Of a stretch of DNA of 39,640 bases, positions 1,395 to 19,178 are shown in pieces (the stretch's first letter is position 1; each line of letters opens with the position of its first letter). The position numbers were made by a program, and so were the translations under genes. This DNA is from a virus (Duplodnaviria; Heunggongvirae; Uroviricota; Caudoviricetes). The DNA lies in IMG/VR virus record IMGVR_UViG_2563366929_000005. One strand, written 5' to 3'. The notes beneath the pieces are model-generated. The model had not been told where the DNA came from. It worked only from the letters and a program-made list of their open reading frames with translations, and ran no database searches.

Positions 1395-2528
1395 ATGAAT
1401 TATGAAAAATATCATAGCACAAACAGAAGCAAGGGTTTGCGAACCTTCTGCTACTTAATTTATTATGTGCAGGTGATTTTTAATGTGATGAAGTGTTTTA
1501 TGACTCGCGGAAACTTTGATTTTATAAACTCTAACGTGGTTTTCTCAGAAGCCGATAAGTCATTGTGGATTGATCTCATTAACACCGATTGTATTTGGTA
1601 TGATATGATAATTAATCCTCCTGATGATATAAGAACAAATAAGATAATAAAGAACTATCTCAGAATTATGGAAAAATATACGAGGGAAAGCTGTGAAAAG
1701 AGATTTATTTATTTCTTAGGTTCAAGAAAAAAAGTAAGGTTTTCAACCAAGAAACAGCCTAGGTATAACCCATTCACAAAAAATATAGTATTCACTCTGT
1801 TGATTGGCAAAGAAGAGCGAAAGCTTCGGATAAAATATTCCTTTTGCACGTTTACGCAGAATGGGGTAGTGAAGGTAACTCCAAATGTTAGAGTAACTGA
1901 GAAGTTTCTCTACATTGAATATGAAAATGGCAATTTATGTGTGATGTCAGTTCATGACTTCGTAAACGGACATTATATTGATTTAGGAATTCATACAGAA
2001 GTGCATTACGTAGGATATACACGTCATCCGCATCGGCGCCCTGTTGATTTTATTCACCGTGGCTTATCAAAGATGCTGTATAGCGTTTCAAATGACGATA
2101 ATGATTTTTTTGTTTGTTTTAGTATATTTAATCCAAGGATTATATCTCTGAATAATAAATGTAATGTGGTCTTTAATATTTCAAATTCTCTACTGGATGA
2201 AATTGATGTTGATAATGAGGGGAGAATTATTGAAAACTGCTTAATACGTTACTTTGATCCTAAGCTTCAAGATGATGACAAGGAAAGTAAAAGGTCAGAT
2301 TTAAATAAAATGTTTATGGACCTGGTGGAAAATAAAAAAATTAAAAAAATATACGTTAATTTTCAATATGAAAGGAATAATGAGTATTTCTGCTTTTACT
2401 CTAAAGTTGTTCCGCCGAAATTTCATCATTTCTTTGTGTTGGATTTTTCTGATGGCAAGATAAATATTGATAGAGACCAGGATATGATGACTCAGATGGC
2501 ATTGTGTATGGGGTATTATAATTATTAA
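1395..2528 (+). CDS. AT-rich orphan protein with a central GIY-YIG-like nuclease motif (candidate defence or homing-type cargo)
   Basis: 377-aa ORF, visibly much lower GC than int or xis. Motif string GHY-x10-YVGYT-x4-RR-x5-H ... EGRIIENCLIRYFDPKLQ (aa about 192-292) resembles GIY-x10-11-YIG..R..H..E..N. The start codon is uncertain (Met1, Met32 or Met36). Confidence 0.65.
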   Translation: MNYEKYHSTNRSKGLRTFCYLIYYVQVIFNVMKCFMTRGNFDFINSNVVFSEADKSLWIDLINTDCIWYDMIINPPDDIRTNKIIKNYLRIMEKYTRESCEKRFIYFLGSRKKVRFSTKKQPRYNPFTKNIVFTLLIGKEERKLRIKYSFCTFTQNGVVKVTPNVRVTEKFLYIEYENGNLCVMSVHDFVNGHYIDLGIHTEVHYVGYTRHPHRRPVDFIHRGLSKMLYSVSNDDNDFFVCFSIFNPRIISLNNKCNVVFNISNSLLDEIDVDNEGRIIENCLIRYFDPKLQDDDKESKRSDLNKMFMDLVENKKIKKIYVNFQYERNNEYFCFYSKVVPPKFHHFFVLDFSDGKINIDRDQDMMTQMALCMGYYNY

Positions 2529-14769: not shown

Positions 14770-14845
14770 GGCCCTTTAGCTCAGTGGTGAGAGCGAGCGA
14801 CTCATAATCGCCAGGTCGCTGGTTCAAATCCAGCAAGGGCCACCA
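14770..14845 (+). tRNA. ileZ: tRNA-Ile2 type (anticodon CAU; would read as Met without lysidine)
   Basis: The cloverleaf folds by eye: acceptor GGCCCTT/AAGGGCC, anticodon loop CTCATAA, T-loop TTCAAAT, encoded CCA. It closely resembles E. coli ileX. Confidence 0.9.
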
Positions 14846-14852
14846 TCACATA

Positions 14853-14929
14853 CCGCCATTAGCTCATCAGGATAGAGCACCAGCCTTCGAAGCTGGTTGC
14901 GCGGGGTTCGAGTCCTCGATGGCGGTCCA
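14853..14929 (+). tRNA. argN: tRNA-Arg (anticodon UCG)
   Basis: Acceptor CCGCCAT/ATGGCGG, anticodon stem CCAGC/GCTGG with loop CTTCGAA, T-arm GGGGTTCGAGTCCTC, encoded CCA. Confidence 0.85.
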
Positions 14930-14942
14930 TTATCTGTACCCT

Positions 14943-15019
14943 GCGTTGTTAGCTCAACCGGACAGAGCAATTGCCTTCTAAGCAATCGGTCACTGGTTCG
15001 AATCCAGTACAACGCGCCA
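14943..15019 (+). tRNA. argO: tRNA-Arg (anticodon UCU)
   Basis: Acceptor GCGTTGT/ACAACGC, anticodon stem ATTGC/GCAAT with loop CTTCTAA, T-arm CTGGTTCGAATCCAG, encoded CCA. Confidence 0.85.
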
Positions 15020-16094: not shown

Positions 16095-16628
16095 ATGAAC
16101 GCAAAAATCAGATACGGCCTGTCGGCTGCCGTTCTGGCACTGATTGCCGTCGGTGCGCCCGCGCCTGATATTCTCGACCAGTTTCTGGATGAAAAAGAAG
16201 GTAACCACACAACGGCATACCGCGATGGTTCCGGCATCTGGACCATCTGTCGGGGTGCCACGATGGTGGATGGAAAACCCGTTTTTCCCGGTATGAAACT
16301 GTCGAAGGAAAAATGCGACCAGGTCAACGCCATTGAGCGTGATAAGGCGCTGGCATGGGTGGAGCGCAATATTAAAGTACCACTGACCGAACCACAAAAA
16401 GCGGGTATCGCGTCATTTTGTCCCTATAACATTGGCCCCGGTAAGTGTTTTCCATCGACGTTTTATAAGCGGCTGAATGCTGGTGATCGTAAGGGCGCAT
16501 GCGAGGCGATTCGCTGGTGGATAAAAGATGGTGGGCGCGATTGCCGCATACGTTCAAATAACTGCTATGGACAGGTTATTCGTCGTGACCAAGAAAGCGC
16601 ATTAGCCTGTTGGGGAATAGATCAGTGA
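16095..16628 (+). CDS. R: SAR endolysin (T4-lysozyme-like, GH24)
   Basis: 177 aa. The N-terminal signal-anchor-release segment is [17 protein letters not shown]. The catalytic E-x8-D-x5-T is [16 protein letters not shown]. Confidence 0.9.
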
Positions 16629-17092
16629 GCAGAGTCGCCGCGATTATTTATGCTCTGGTTATCTGCATCATCGTCTGCCTGTCGTGGGCGGTCAATCATT
16701 ACCGTGATAACGCCATCACCTACAAAGAACAGCGTGATAAAAAAGTCAGTGAGCTGAAGCAGCTGACCGCCACCATCGCTGACATGCAGCAGCGTCAGCG
16801 TGATGTTGCTGCGCTCGATGCAAAGTACTCGAGAGAATTAGCCAATGCGAAAGCTGAAAATGAAACTCTGCGCGCTGATGTTGCCGCTGGTCGTAAGCGC
16901 CTGCGGGTCAATGCCAGTTGCTCCGCAGCCGTGCGTGAAGCCACCGGACCCACCAGCGTGGATAATGCAACCAGCCCCAGACTGGCAGACACCGCTGAAC
17001 GGGATTATTTCACCCTCAGAGAACGGTTGATGACGATGCAGAAGCAACTGGAAGGGGCACAGCTATACATTCGTGAGCAATGTCTCAGATAA
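16625..17092 (+). CDS. Rz: i-spanin Rz
   Basis: GTG start overlapping the endolysin stop. [34 protein letters not shown].. is close to lambda Rz. Confidence 0.9.
16845..17030 (+). CDS. Rz1: o-spanin Rz1 (lipoprotein) embedded in Rz in the +1 frame
   Basis: 61 aa. The lipobox is LVVSAC. The proline-rich mature part [30 protein letters not shown] is close to lambda Rz1. Confidence 0.85.
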
Positions 17093-17247
17093 AAACCGGC
17101 CAAGGATAATCCGCTAAAGATTCGCCGGTGGCGAAAGAGAGCCAAGGTGTCAACCTACGCTATTACTTATGATAATGCAACAGACGAAGCGGGACATATT
17201 GGCGCATAACAAATCAGTGCAGGCTAACTGCAGGAAGAACTTAGGGC

Positions 17248-17514
17248 GTGAACGTAGAAAACCTAAGTAACGCACATTACATCTATAACGAGATGAAAGA
17301 GCTACAGCGACAGAAAGGTATACTGGAAAGTGGTGCAGGGCTTGGTGTGACAATCCAGTCTGCCTATCAATATAGTGCTTTTCTTGAGGCCATACGCCCG
17401 CATGCAGTTGCTGAACTTAACAGCCGTATTGAGGAAAAGAAATCCGCGCTGGTTAATTTGGGTGCTTCCTTCTCTATATACGAGCATAATAAGGCGGGTT
17501 GGAAACCCGCCTAA
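17248..17514 (+). CDS. Hypothetical protein (GTG start) downstream of the lysis cassette
   Basis: 88-aa ORF with no recognisable motif. It ends inside a hairpin shared with the convergent gene. Confidence 0.45.
   Translation: MNVENLSNAHYIYNEMKELQRQKGILESGAGLGVTIQSAYQYSAFLEAIRPHAVAELNSRIEEKKSALVNLGASFSIYEHNKAGWKPA
17493..17511. terminator. Hairpin between convergent genes (probable terminator for the minus-strand moron)
   Basis: GGCGGGTT-GGA-AACCCGCC, an 8-bp stem. On the minus strand it is followed by TTATTAT. Confidence 0.45.
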
Positions 17515-17519
17515 AGCAC

Positions 17520-18059
17520 TTAGAAACTGCGTGGAGCTGTGGAAAGAATGGATGCCAGTTCTTCCTTCGATAAATCCCAGCTTCGATTTACAGCGTCAAT
17601 TTTCTTAAACTCATCAAGCATTGCGTTATAGAGATGTTCTGTACGTGAATGAGTATTGGCAATGGGCTGTTTCTGTTCGGGGAAGCGATCAATTTTCTGA
17701 TATGCCTCAATGATACTGAAGTAATCGCATTCATTATTACCGTCGAAACCTGGGAGCTGAATTGCCCCATCATGTATTTTTAGATGATGGTCACGGACTA
17801 ATTCTTTTTGCTCGTCATCACTAAGTTTCCTGAAAGCATTGGAAAGTCCGCGATACATATTCAAGACAGCAGTAACAAAATCACGATCTTCTTTACTTGG
17901 TTCGTCAACATCCAAATGTGAATATTCGGCCTTGATAACCCAATCATTACCAGATGACACAGCATATTTAACAAGCTGTGGATCAATATCAGTTTCGATA
18001 CCTAGGTGGATGGCAATGTCACATAACAAAATGGTATTGATTTTATCTTTAATATCCAT
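17520..18059 (-). CDS. YfbU-family-like protein (reverse-oriented, low-GC moron)
   Basis: 179 aa. By-eye similarity to E. coli YfbU: ..EDRDFVTAVLNMYRGLSNAF.. versus EETCRTIIDIMEMYHAL; ..GFDGNNE..YF.. versus GFDAATE..YL; and a C-terminal LSKEEL versus LSANEI. It is on the opposite strand to the late operon. Confidence 0.65.
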   Translation of the reverse strand: MDIKDKINTILLCDIAIHLGIETDIDPQLVKYAVSSGNDWVIKAEYSHLDVDEPSKEDRDFVTAVLNMYRGLSNAFRKLSDDEQKELVRDHHLKIHDGAIQLPGFDGNNECDYFSIIEAYQKIDRFPEQKQPIANTHSRTEHLYNAMLDEFKKIDAVNRSWDLSKEELASILSTAPRSF

Positions 18060-18197
18060 GAGTTAACCCTCTGAAGTAAAAAGTAATATCTACACCCGTT
18101 GGCTCATGAAGTCTATTGATCTGTCTCATATCAGCAGCAAATCTATTCCATGGAGATACTCAATGCAGGTCACCTTTGATTTATATAAGGGCGAAAC

Positions 18198-18548
18198 ATG
18201 CCAGCACTAATCCCACGCGCCTGCCGTAAGCGTGGATGTGCAGGTACAACCACAGACAGTTCTGGTTACTGCGATAAACATCGTGGCGAAGGATGGGTAC
18301 AGCATCAACGCGGACTGAGCCGCCACCAGCGTGGCTATGGCTCGAAATGGGATGCCATACGTGCGCGCATACTGAAGCGTGATAATCATCTGTGTCAGAA
18401 CTGCCTGCGCAATGGGAGAGCCGTTGAAGCCAGAACTGTGGACCACATCATTCCGAAAGCTCATGGTGGCACGGATGCAGACAGTAACCTGCAGAGTCTG
18501 TGCTGGCCCTGTCATAAAGCAAAAACAGCGCGCGAACGCATCAATTGA
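18198..18548 (+). CDS. HNH endonuclease (HK97 gp74-type, terminase-associated)
   Basis: 116 aa. HLCQNC...VDHIIPKAHGGTDADSNLQSLCWPCHKAKT. It lies immediately upstream of the small terminase gene. Confidence 0.9.
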   Translation: MPALIPRACRKRGCAGTTTDSSGYCDKHRGEGWVQHQRGLSRHQRGYGSKWDAIRARILKRDNHLCQNCLRNGRAVEARTVDHIIPKAHGGTDADSNLQSLCWPCHKAKTARERIN

Positions 18549-18695
18549 TAACAGCTCCCATCTGCAGGGGAGGGGCGGGTCAAATCTCTGCAACCCTGGC
18601 TGTTCAGTACCGCCGCCTGACCTTTCCTCGCATCGCCGCAGGTTCGAAAACTTTTTTTTGGAATGTGATTAAATGATTGATAGGTAAAACCGATT

Positions 18696-19178
18696 ATGTC
18701 TGGACCCCCGAAAACCCCGCCACGCCTGCATTTGATACGAGGCAACCCCTCAAAGCGGCCAGTTAAAGACCTCAAAAAAACCGCTAAAAAGGATGAAAAA
18801 GGTCTCCCTAAAATTCCGCAACATTTAGGGGCGCAGGGGAAGTACTGGTTCAGGCGAATGGCGGAAGAGCTGAATGCGGAAGGGATCATTTCTCAGCTTG
18901 ATGCGCGTGCGCTTGAGCTACTGGTGGAAGCCTATACCGAATACCGGCATCACTGCGAAACACTCGATGTTGAGGGGTACACCTACCGCTCGGAAACGCA
19001 GAACGGTGATGTGCTGATTAAGGCACACCCAGCTGCTGCGATGAAAGCGGATGCCTGGAAGCGGATCCGGGCGATGCTTGCAGAATTTGGTATGTCACCG
19101 GCAAGCCGGGCAAAAGTAAATACCGCCGGACCGGATAATGTTGATCCGCTGGCAGAGCTTTTAAAAGCGAGAGACTGA
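18696..19178 (+). CDS. Terminase small subunit (P27/HK97 gp1 family)
   Basis: 160 aa. The pattern ..LIRGNPSKRP...P..L...G...W..........G....D...L..L..AY..Y.. is present, and the gene is coupled to TerL (TGATG). Confidence 0.9.
   Translation: MSGPPKTPPRLHLIRGNPSKRPVKDLKKTAKKDEKGLPKIPQHLGAQGKYWFRRMAEELNAEGIISQLDARALELLVEAYTEYRHHCETLDVEGYTYRSETQNGDVLIKAHPAAAMKADAWKRIRAMLAEFGMSPASRAKVNTAGPDNVDPLAELLKARD

What the first reader, a model, noticed from the sequence alone, without database searches (positions are those of the whole stretch)
17248..18059. Convergent gene pair between lysis and packaging modules: an unknown 88-aa ORF and a reverse-oriented low-GC YfbU-like moron
The minus-strand 179-aa gene has clearly lower GC than the flanking late genes. 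It has its own upstream intergenic region (18060-18197). It shares a hairpin (17493-17511) with the convergent 88-aa ORF. Its position corresponds to the bor slot of lambda, which holds lysogen-expressed cargo. Similarity to the YfbU family (UPF0304, function unknown) was judged by eye only. A YfbU-like protein as prophage cargo has no assigned role and could be a lysogenic-conversion or defence factor.
Basis: partly seen in the sequence, partly recalled or inferred. Interest (0 to 1): 0.5.

Follow-up and report, generated by a model that had tools for sequence, protein, structure and literature searches.

The report
Prophage YfbU-like cargo gene, probable defence
An E. coli prophage carries, between its lysis and DNA-packaging genes, a self-contained backwards-facing cargo gene for a YfbU-fold protein that probably protects the lysogen against other phages, while the small gene facing it is an unrelated phage gene that has lost its stop codon.

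Summary
The 88-aa + ORF (17248-17514), the 179-aa minus-strand ORF (17520-18059), the GC dip (0.39 against 0.50) and a perfect 9-bp hairpin (17492-17512) are all present.

It is an autonomous cassette of about 720 bp with its own terminator. On otherwise identical phage backbones the same slot holds bor/iss or is empty. In 78 viral contigs all 412 recognised lysis or terminase neighbours lie on the opposite strand. dN/dS is about 0.1.

The 88-aa ORF belongs to a separate late-gene family that is normally 76 aa. It occurs with or without YfbU. Here it lost its stop codon and reads into the cassette's terminator, so the pair is not a functional unit.

The most likely role is lysogen-expressed anti-phage defence, like Kamadhenu, a published single-gene 180-aa YfbU-fold abortive-infection protein of Lactococcus. 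This is inferred, not shown. Expression, promoter and phenotype were not tested, and the Kamadhenu sequence could not be obtained.

Verdict: new member of a known kind, of moderate interest.

The parts
17248..17514 (+). Small late-operon ORF (88 aa here, family norm 76 aa; phrog_5415, function unknown). It is not part of the YfbU cassette.
   Evidence: ORF. (phrog_5415, E 2e-38, profile length 76). (276 homologues, mostly 76 aa). (found with and without YfbU). (dN/dS about 0.2). (helical hairpin model, pLDDT 77, no significant PDB match).
17476..17478 (+). Site of the ancestral stop codon of the small ORF. It reads TAA in Klebsiella L007 and E. coli L002 and ATA here. Its loss adds 12 codons that run through the hairpin.
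   Evidence: DNA alignment A2 and protein alignment A4.
17479..18197 (-). YfbU cassette (moron) of about 720 bp: terminator, CDS and 5' region. The left edge is where homology to YfbU-less prophages ends. The right edge is the HNH start codon, where homology to the bor-carrying and empty-slot phages begins.
   Evidence: homology to L002 ends after the 76-aa stop; the CDS is 93.7% identical to Klebsiella while the flanks are 61-83%. (phages without the cassette match only from window 18198 onward)..
17492..17512 (-). Probable intrinsic terminator of the YfbU-like gene: 9-bp GC-rich stem, 3-nt loop, followed on the minus strand by UUAUUAUG. There is no U-tract on the + strand.
   Evidence: Klebsiella, Enterobacter and Providencia relatives each have a different strong hairpin at the same place (z -3.3 to -5.6), and those in the two Enterobacter loci and Providencia are followed by clearer U-rich tails. 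The strict terminator scan did not call this site.
17520..18059 (-). YfbU-fold protein gene (179 aa; WP_000351660.1). It is of the GFDGNNE / N-[ST]-H subtype.
18060..18197 (-). 5' region of the cassette: a 138-bp spacer up to the divergent HNH start, GC 0.391. It holds the Shine-Dalgarno sequence AGAGGG (18067-18072). A promoter is presumed here but has not been identified. The weak candidates are -35 at 18115-18110 with -10 at 18090-18085.
   Evidence: 83% identical to Klebsiella, not alignable to other subclades. (no match better than chance).
16610..17092 (+). Rz spanin gene, the last lysis gene. It forms the left flank of the cargo slot.
   Evidence: PF03245, E 1.6e-49.
18198..18548 (+). 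HNH endonuclease gene, the first gene of the HK97-type packaging module. It forms the right flank of the cargo slot.
   Evidence: PF01844. TerS P27 family lies at 18696-19178 (PF05119).

Best explanation
Window 17479-18197 is a self-contained cargo cassette (a moron). It sits antisense in the polymorphic slot between the lysis genes (Rz) and the packaging genes (HNH, TerS, TerL) of an HK97-like lambdoid prophage of E. coli.

The cassette encodes a cytoplasmic, two-domain helical protein with the YfbU fold. The protein belongs to a mobile-element subfamily marked by the motifs GFDGNNE and N-[ST]-H.

Most likely function (inferred): the gene is transcribed on its own in the lysogen and acts as a single-gene anti-phage factor of the Kamadhenu type. 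In that model it acts after DNA injection of a superinfecting phage, possibly in response to the phage's recombination machinery (single-strand annealing protein or recombination intermediates), and aborts the infection.

The conserved antisense placement would let the prophage's own Q-antiterminated late transcript run against the gene during induction and so dampen it. This is also inference.

The 88-aa ORF is a separate late-operon gene of unknown function. It is normally 76 aa. Here it lost its stop codon and reads into the cassette's terminator.

Shown: family, fold, cassette boundaries, slot polymorphism, orientation rule, terminators, purifying selection.
Inferred: expression in lysogens, the defence role, the trigger, and self-silencing by antisense transcription.
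For: Family and fold:
- Pfam YfbU 46.3 bits against a cut-off of 25.
- The profile of 30 homologues hits the solved YfbU structures 1WPB and 4LR3 at E 2.7e-9.

Cassette anatomy:
- GC 0.391 against 0.502 for the window.
- A hairpin lies 7 nt after the stop codon. Relatives carry non-homologous hairpins at the same place.
- Homology to YfbU-less prophages ends right after the small ORF's ancestral stop and resumes at the HNH ATG.
- The CDS is 93.7% identical between E. coli and Klebsiella, while the flanks are 61-83% identical.

Slot:
- The same backbone carries bor/iss in antisense orientation or nothing.
- 567 genomes hold the iss allele and 224 hold the YfbU allele.

Position rule:
- In 78 viral contigs, lysis genes lie on the 3' side in 74 and HNH or terminase genes on the 5' side in 56.
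- All 412 recognised neighbour ORFs are on the opposite strand and none on the same strand.
- This holds across at least three small-terminase types (plus loci where only a large-terminase match was recognised) and several lysis cassettes. It also holds for homologues of only 28-39% identity.

Selection: dN/dS 0.07-0.13.

Defence link:
- All its escape mutants map to G22 of a Sak-like single-strand annealing protein (PMC12184496).
- E. coli YfbU is needed for cell death after DNA damage (PMC2646832).
- Immediate neighbours of distant homologues include FRG/PDC-S15 (6 loci), MADS, TIR/bSEFIR, PARIS AriAB and GmrSD proteins, as well as integrases.
Against: - There is no direct evidence of expression in lysogens.
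- No promoter better than chance was found.
- PADLOC-DB v2 has no model that matches the protein. This is expected for a 2023 library that predates Kamadhenu.
- The Kamadhenu sequence could not be obtained. Whether the two proteins share a subfamily is therefore unknown. Both hit PF03887 and fold like 1WPB, but the family is diverse: the window protein is only 17-26% identical to K-12 YfbU and to the E. faecium plasmid YfbU.
- Only 2 deposited phage records carry the near-identical gene and 2 more (one Yersinia phage) a 32% relative; none is characterised.
- Defence-gene enrichment near distant homologues was not compared with a matched background.
- The window hairpin has a poor U-tract and was not called by the terminator scan.
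Confidence: 0.5

Rival explanations
1. Host-physiology or lysogenic-conversion factor rather than phage defence. In this reading the prophage copy acts like, or interferes with, chromosomal YfbU in the response to DNA damage. It would tune host death or survival, or prophage induction, to the prophage's benefit.
For: Chromosomal YfbU is reported as needed for mazEF-linked death after DNA damage (PMC2646832). The slot otherwise carries bor/iss, a host-fitness (serum-survival) gene and not a defence gene. The fold is shared with chromosomal YfbU.
Against: Identity to K-12 YfbU is only 17%. The score falls below the NCBIfam equivalog cut-off (34.8 against 90). The signature GFDGNNE / N-[ST]-H is degenerate in the chromosomal protein, which reads GFDAATE / NAQ. 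The only experimentally assigned role for a mobile-element YfbU-fold protein is phage defence. Distant relatives sit beside defence genes.
Confidence: 0.2
2. A phage life-cycle or counter-defence gene that serves the carrying phage during its own infection. Examples would be an inhibitor of a host defence or an accessory to packaging near cos.
For: The gene lies immediately next to the packaging module in every context examined. Small accessory genes of unknown function are common at this junction.
Against: The gene is always antisense to the late operon (412 against 0) and has its own terminator. It would therefore be opposed, not driven, by late transcription. Closely related phages lack it or carry bor/iss in its place, so it is dispensable for growth. 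Relatives are also common on plasmids and chromosomes outside phages.
Confidence: 0.12
3. The 88-aa ORF and the YfbU-like gene form one functional two-gene module, for instance a regulator or antidote plus an effector, coupled through the shared hairpin.
For: The two genes are adjacent and convergent in E. coli and in Klebsiella prophages that have different lysis genes. The hairpin overlaps the 3' end of the small ORF.
Against: The small ORF adjoins YfbU in only 30 of 78 viral loci. It occurs without YfbU in lambda-type E. coli prophages. YfbU of 99% identity occurs without it (L116, L118 and L141). The overlap with the hairpin is a lineage-specific stop-loss. The two genes diverged at different rates between E. 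coli and Klebsiella, 82.9% against 93.7% identity.
Confidence: 0.05
4. Decaying or neutral hitch-hiker DNA with no current function.
For: Low GC and no recognisable promoter. A few truncated copies exist (L153 and L156).
Against: dN/dS is 0.07-0.13 and the 540-nt reading frame is intact in the six relatives checked down to 75% identity. Ten residues are invariant across 30 homologues. The placement is strictly conserved across mosaic phages. The cassette is in 224 complete E. coli genomes.
Confidence: 0.05

Closest known systems
Kamadhenu (Lactococcus plasmid pUCCL624_130; Grafakou et al. 2024, PMC11381338; escape study PMC12184496)
   Different: Host (Lactococcus against Enterobacterales), vehicle (plasmid against prophage late region) and unknown sequence relationship, because the Kamadhenu sequence could not be retrieved. 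No phenotype is known for the E. coli protein.
Chromosomal YfbU of E. coli (b2294; PDB 1WPB and 4LR3; UPF0304)
   Same: Same Pfam family and same two-domain helical fold. It shares the GFD...E core, the conserved Tyr and the LxMY helix.
   Different: 17% identity. It is 164 aa against 179 aa. The N-terminal 50 residues do not align by sequence. The motifs are degenerate in the chromosomal protein (GFDAATE, NAQ). It is a core chromosomal gene, not mobile cargo. The window protein scores below the NCBIfam equivalog cut-off.
bor / iss moron of lambda and lambdoid prophages
   Same: Same slot between Rz and the packaging genes, same antisense orientation, and same role as optional cargo presumed to be expressed in the lysogen. 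The two are true alternative alleles on one backbone.
   Different: The proteins are unrelated. Bor/Iss is an outer-membrane lipoprotein involved in serum survival, whereas the YfbU-like protein is a cytoplasmic helical protein.
Prophage-encoded superinfection-exclusion / abortive-infection genes (for example lambda rexAB; from my own knowledge, not tested here)
   Same: Prophage cargo that is expressed in the lysogen and harms other phages.
   Different: No sequence or structural relationship. rexAB is a two-gene system in the immunity region, not in the late region.

Membership tests
YfbU family (Pfam PF03887 / UPF0304) | Sequence match to the family HMM above the curated gathering score | tested here: met
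   46.3 bits against a cut-off of 25, E 6.5e-12, residues 46-172. The profile of 30 homologues hits 1WPB and 4LR3 at E 2.7e-9.
YfbU family (Pfam PF03887 / UPF0304) | Two-domain all-helical YfbU fold | tested here: met
Chromosomal YfbU orthologue (NCBIfam NF003936 equivalog) | Score above the equivalog cut-off | tested here: not met
   34.8 bits against a cut-off of 90. Identity to K-12 YfbU is 17%. It is a distant paralogue, not an orthologue.
Kamadhenu antiphage system | Single-gene system of about 180 aa with the YfbU fold | tested here: met
   179 aa. No conserved co-oriented partner gene appears in any enterobacterial prophage context. The fold is as above.
Kamadhenu antiphage system | Sequence similarity to the Kamadhenu protein pUCCL624_130 | not testable with these tools
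   The sequence was not retrievable. There was no Lactococcus hit in the listed plasmid results, no supplements were held, and there was no Lactococcus protein in the homology search seeded with the E. faecium YfbU. The AFDB library was unavailable, and cluster names were uninformative.
Kamadhenu antiphage system | Confers phage resistance after DNA injection; escape through mutation of a phage Sak-like annealing protein | not testable with these tools
   This needs plaque, survival and escape-mutant experiments. The published data concern Lactococcus only.
Moron (autonomous cargo unit in a lambdoid late region, in the sense of Juhala/Hendrix; definition from my own knowledge) | Inserted between genes that are adjacent in related phages | tested here: met
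   In phage Evi, Rz is followed about 40 nt later by the HNH gene. Phage 640R1 carries bor/iss there instead.
Moron (autonomous cargo unit in a lambdoid late region, in the sense of Juhala/Hendrix; definition from my own knowledge) | Base composition distinct from the flanks | tested here: met
   GC 0.391 against 0.50-0.54.
Moron (autonomous cargo unit in a lambdoid late region, in the sense of Juhala/Hendrix; definition from my own knowledge) | Own terminator | tested here: met
   The hairpin at 17492-17512 is followed by UUAUUAUG on the gene's strand. Non-homologous hairpins lie at the same place in four relatives, three of them with clearer U-rich tails. Caveat: the strict scan did not call the window copy.
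Moron (autonomous cargo unit in a lambdoid late region, in the sense of Juhala/Hendrix; definition from my own knowledge) | Own promoter, active in the lysogen | tested here: inconclusive
   No consensus sigma-70 site was found on the minus strand. The best relaxed match was reached by 350 of 500 shuffles. A conserved TATAGT lies 44 nt upstream of the ATG in the two Enterobacter loci only. Transcript data are needed.
Bor/Iss lipoprotein family | Sequence similarity to Bor/Iss | tested here: not met
   The family scans return YfbU and one sub-threshold restriction-enzyme match, with no Bor/Iss hit. Only the genomic slot is shared.

The most novel reading that the evidence does not exclude
The GFDGNNE-type YfbU-fold proteins form a broad and largely unrecognised class of defence effectors or sensors. 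There are about 2,100 clusters at 50% identity. They occur as single genes in prophage late regions, as two-gene operons with a conserved 167-aa partner, and next to FRG (PDC-S15) proteins. The conserved Asp/Asn/Glu/His site would detect or act on phage recombination intermediates. In lambdoid prophages their strictly antisense position in the lysis-packaging slot would be a built-in switch: the prophage's own late transcription silences its abortive-infection gene during induction.
Probability: 0.25. Interest if true: 0.65.

Novelty: new member of a known kind. Interest (0 to 1): 0.42.

Why it matters
If the defence role holds, about 4% of complete E. coli genomes (224 of 5,426), and many Klebsiella, Enterobacter, Citrobacter and Providencia prophages, would carry an unrecognised single-gene anti-phage factor that PADLOC-DB v2 (2023) does not detect. 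That matters for predicting phage-therapy host range in clinical lineages.

It would also move Kamadhenu from a lactococcal curiosity to a cross-phylum family. E. coli would become a tractable model for working out what the YfbU fold does, a question open since the 2004 structural-genomics structure.

The 412-to-0 orientation rule gives a clean test case for how prophages keep a potentially suicidal cargo gene from acting against their own lytic cycle.

If the defence role does not hold, this is an ordinary, already-annotated prophage accessory gene.

Tried and rejected
1. I could not obtain the Kamadhenu sequence for a direct comparison.
- tblastn of the window protein and of the E. faecium plasmid YfbU against PLSDB showed no Lactococcus among the listed organisms or rows.
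- No supplementary files are held for the paper.
- The third large homology search, seeded with the E. faecium protein, returned only Enterococcus and unnamed metagenome proteins.
- The AFDB50 fold library was unavailable.
- Cluster names for nine 180-aa family representatives (plus one of 179 aa) were uninformative.

2. Single-sequence phmmer of the 179-aa protein against the PDB missed YfbU altogether. Only the profile found it.

3. PADLOC-DB gave no hit for either protein.

4. Promoter search. The consensus scan found nothing on the minus strand. The relaxed scan was no better than shuffles. The upstream regions of different subclades do not align.

5. The small ORF has no Pfam or NCBIfam hit. 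Its only PDB sequence hit is non-significant (E 0.15). Its two-helix model gives only non-specific Foldseek matches, all with E > 1.

6. Rfam found no known RNA in 16900-18700.

7. A literature search for the exact accessions, phrog_6084, PF03887 and UPF0304 found no description of this prophage clade.

8. I rejected the reading of a bidirectional terminator shared by a convergent pair, because there is no U-tract on the + strand and the overlap comes from a stop-loss.

9. I rejected any relationship to Bor, because only the position is shared.

Full report
**1. What is there**

The window is a complete lambdoid prophage, identical to one in E. coli MS8345 that is integrated between yjjG and prfC. 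The late region reads as follows:
- P21-type holin
- YdfR/DUF1327
- lysozyme
- Rz (16610-17092)
- the 88-aa ORF (17248-17514, + strand)
- the 179-aa ORF (17520-18059, - strand)
- HNH endonuclease (18198-18548)
- P27-family small terminase
- large terminase

- The 179-aa CDS and its 138-bp 5' spacer both have GC 0.391. The window as a whole is 0.502 and the flanking genes are 0.53-0.54. Only 3.9% of 540-nt windows are as low.
- A perfect 9-bp/3-nt hairpin lies at 17492-17512.
- The gene has a good Shine-Dalgarno sequence, AGAGGG, 7 nt before the ATG.

**2. Identity of the 179-aa protein**

- Pfam places it in the YfbU family: PF03887, 46.3 bits against a gathering score of 25.
- It matches PHROG 6084 end to end.
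- It falls well below the NCBIfam equivalog cut-off for chromosomal YfbU, 34.8 against 90.
- A single-sequence search of the PDB missed YfbU. A profile of 30 homologues hit both solved YfbU entries, 1WPB and 4LR3, at E 2.7e-9 over residues 54-173.

The protein is only 17% identical to K-12 YfbU. Thirty homologues share ten invariant residues, including a GFDGNNE motif, H137 and Y144. The same GFDGNNE...N-[ST]-H...Y signature appears in distant relatives from Pseudomonas, Psychrobacter, Megasphaera, Christensenella and a Yersinia phage; a Vibrio relative has NSY at the second motif. In the chromosomal E. coli protein it is degenerate (GFDAATE...NAQ).

RefSeq already names the gene 'YfbU family protein' (WP_000351660.1), so the family label itself is not new.

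**3. It is an autonomous cassette in a polymorphic cargo slot**

*Boundaries.* An alignment with a Klebsiella prophage that has the gene and an E. coli prophage that lacks it fixes the left edge. Homology to the YfbU-less locus stops directly after the small ORF's normal stop codon. Phages without the cassette match the window only from 18198 onward, which is the HNH start codon. The unit is therefore about 17479-18197, made up of hairpin, CDS and 5' region.

*Slot contents on the same backbone.*
- Phage Evi has Rz followed about 40 nt later by the HNH gene.
- Phage vB_EcoS-640R1 has the same backbone and carries bor/iss, also antisense, in this slot.
- The iss allele with these flanks is in 567 of 5,426 complete E. 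coli genomes. The YfbU allele is in 224.

*Recent exchange.* The CDS is 93.7% identical between E. coli and Klebsiella. The small ORF is 82.9% identical, the HNH start 74.6%, and the sequence left of the small ORF is essentially unalignable (60.7% over 117 nt). The cassette has therefore moved between genera more recently than its flanks diverged.

*Terminators.* Every clade member examined has a strong stem-loop just past its stop codon on its own strand. The sequences are unrelated (z -3.3 to -5.6). The Enterobacter and Providencia versions have clearer U-rich tails. The window copy has a weaker tail, UUAUUAUG, and the strict scan did not call it.

*Promoter.* No promoter could be identified.

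**4. A strict placement rule**

In Enterobacter hormaechei (58% identity) and Providencia (50% identity) prophages, the gene again lies between the lysis genes and the small terminase gene and is antisense. There the terminase is the lambda-like DUF1441/GpA type and the lysis genes differ.

A scan of IMG/VR found 176 viral contigs with a relative, and I analysed 78 loci.
- 74 loci have lysis genes on the 3' side.
- 56 loci have HNH or terminase genes on the 5' side.
- All 412 recognisable neighbour ORFs are on the opposite strand, and none is on the same strand.
- The rule holds for homologues of only 28-39% identity and across at least three small-terminase types.

dN/dS against five progressively divergent copies is 0.07-0.13 where it could be estimated. 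The gene is under purifying selection, and so, apparently, are its position and orientation.

**5. The 88-aa ORF is a separate matter**

- Its family (phrog_5415; 276 hits) is normally 76 aa long.
- In the window the ancestral TAA at 17476-17478 reads ATA. The frame therefore runs 12 more codons through the cassette's hairpin.
- The family occurs right after the spanin genes in lambda-type E. coli prophages that have no YfbU.
- YfbU copies of 99% identity occur without it.
- It adjoins YfbU in only 30 of 78 viral loci.
- It is a real gene (dN/dS about 0.2).
- It is predicted as a two-helix hairpin with a conserved ESGxGLGVTIQS loop. It has no informative structural or family match.

The 'convergent pair' is therefore a juxtaposition and not a module. 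The hairpin is not a bidirectional terminator, because there is no U-tract on the + strand.

**6. Function**

Nothing here measures function, so this part is inference. Three lines point to phage defence.

- It gives strong resistance to Skunavirus and Ceduovirus phages.
- It does not affect adsorption or DNA injection.
- Its authors report an abortive-infection phenotype (PMC11381338).
- All escape mutants map to G22 of a Sak-like single-strand annealing protein (PMC12184496).

(b) Chromosomal YfbU was reported as required for cell death after DNA damage (PMC2646832). This fits a death-effector role tied to DNA metabolism.

(c) Genomic company.
- The immediate neighbours of distant homologues include FRG-domain proteins (PADLOC candidate PDC-S15, 6 loci), MADS, TIR/bSEFIR, PARIS AriAB and GmrSD proteins, as well as integrases, resolvases and a transposase.
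- Relatives are frequent on plasmids, including about 150-270 Enterococcus plasmid records.
- I did not compute a matched background, so this enrichment is suggestive only.

The antisense placement invites a mechanism. In the lysogen the gene would be transcribed alone. On induction, the Q-antiterminated late transcript would collide with it and pair with its mRNA, which would spare the prophage its own abortive-infection factor. This is untested.

Confidence:
- about 0.9 for the structural description
- about 0.5 for the full statement that includes the defence role

The main rival (0.2) is a host-physiology or lysogenic-conversion role related to DNA-damage responses.

**7. Limits**

- I could not retrieve the Kamadhenu sequence. 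Homology to it is therefore established only at family and fold level.
- The family is diverse, with 2,112 representatives at 50% identity and E <= 1e-3. It has at least two N-terminal domain types.
- PADLOC-DB v2 (2023) has no model for the family.
- The searchable literature holds no description of this enterobacterial prophage clade.

**8. Verdict**

It is a new, uncharacterised member of a recently recognised kind: a YfbU-fold, Kamadhenu-type single-gene defence candidate, here carried as a prophage moron allelic with bor/iss. Interest is moderate.

The most useful new facts are:
- the exact cassette boundaries
- the allelic relation to bor/iss
- the 412:0 orientation rule
- the GFDGNNE / N-[ST]-H signature that separates mobile copies from the housekeeping paralogue
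- the demonstration that the 88-aa ORF is an unrelated gene with a lost stop codon

Noticed in passing
L019, L022-L024, L026, L027, L031, L032, L037 and others (for example L022:5465-5968:+ upstream of L022:5983-6546:+): In 29 of 79 distant genome loci, the YfbU-like gene is directly preceded by a conserved, co-oriented gene of about 167 aa. The gap is about 10-15 nt, and the partner has no Pfam hit and no significant PADLOC hit (one marginal ThsA match, E 0.017). This looks like a two-gene operon in Pseudomonas, Psychrobacter, Arcobacter and other genera, and it could be an undescribed two-component system.
   Followed up: partly
L029:6545-7228:+, L068:5008-5832:+, and also L046, L077, L082, L086: In six loci the YfbU-like gene is adjacent to, and co-oriented with, an FRG-domain protein (PF08867). 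This protein matches the PADLOC defence candidate PDC-S15, with E values down to 6e-82.
   Followed up: partly
window 1395-2528 (+), with GC 0.30-0.35 across about 1100-2600: This is the lowest-GC island of the window. It is a 377-aa ORF just downstream of the integrase gene, annotated as hypothetical (WP_225092812.1), with no Pfam or PADLOC hit. It is a second candidate cargo gene at the attachment-site end of the prophage.
   Followed up: partly
window 14770-15019 (+): Three tRNA genes lie between the Q antiterminator region and the holin gene. ARAGORN calls them Met(CAT), Arg(TCG) and Arg(TCT). RefSeq annotates the first as tRNA-Ile, which would fit a CAT anticodon modified to read AUA. A truncated DNA methyltransferase pseudogene lies just upstream.
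   Followed up: partly
L100 (E. faecium Aus0085 plasmid p3) 4998-5516 and 5523-6035: A YfbU-family gene of 172 aa is found on at least 146 Enterococcus plasmid records (270 when the E. faecium protein is the query). In the one plasmid examined (E. faecium Aus0085 p3) it is followed 6 nt later by an unannotated-function 170-aa gene, among IS elements, resolvases and lsa(E). It may be another two-gene variant.
   Followed up: partly
window 17520-18059 compared with L007:4273-4812: The YfbU cassette is 93.7% identical between E. coli and Klebsiella prophages, while the adjacent small ORF, hairpin region and HNH start are 61-83% identical. The cassette has therefore been exchanged between genera more recently than its flanks diverged.
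   Followed up: yes
L134, L143, L148, L153 (viral contigs): In some prophages the lysis-packaging slot is enlarged. About 1.5-3.8 kb of further unexamined sequence lies between the YfbU-like gene and the lysis or terminase genes, so the slot can hold several cargo genes. L153 and L156 carry truncated YfbU copies.
   Followed up: no
family-wide (P0214, P0220, P0224, P0253 and others): A subset of family representatives is 225-240 aa long, with an extra N-terminal segment of about 50 residues ahead of the YfbU-like body. The nature of this segment was not examined.
   Followed up: no
L101 (Yersinia phage vB_YenM_324) 4956-5534: A P2-like (Peduoviridae) Yersinia phage carries a 32%-identical YfbU-like gene near the right end of its genome, downstream of tail-fibre genes. 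This context differs from the lambdoid lysis-packaging slot.
   Followed up: no
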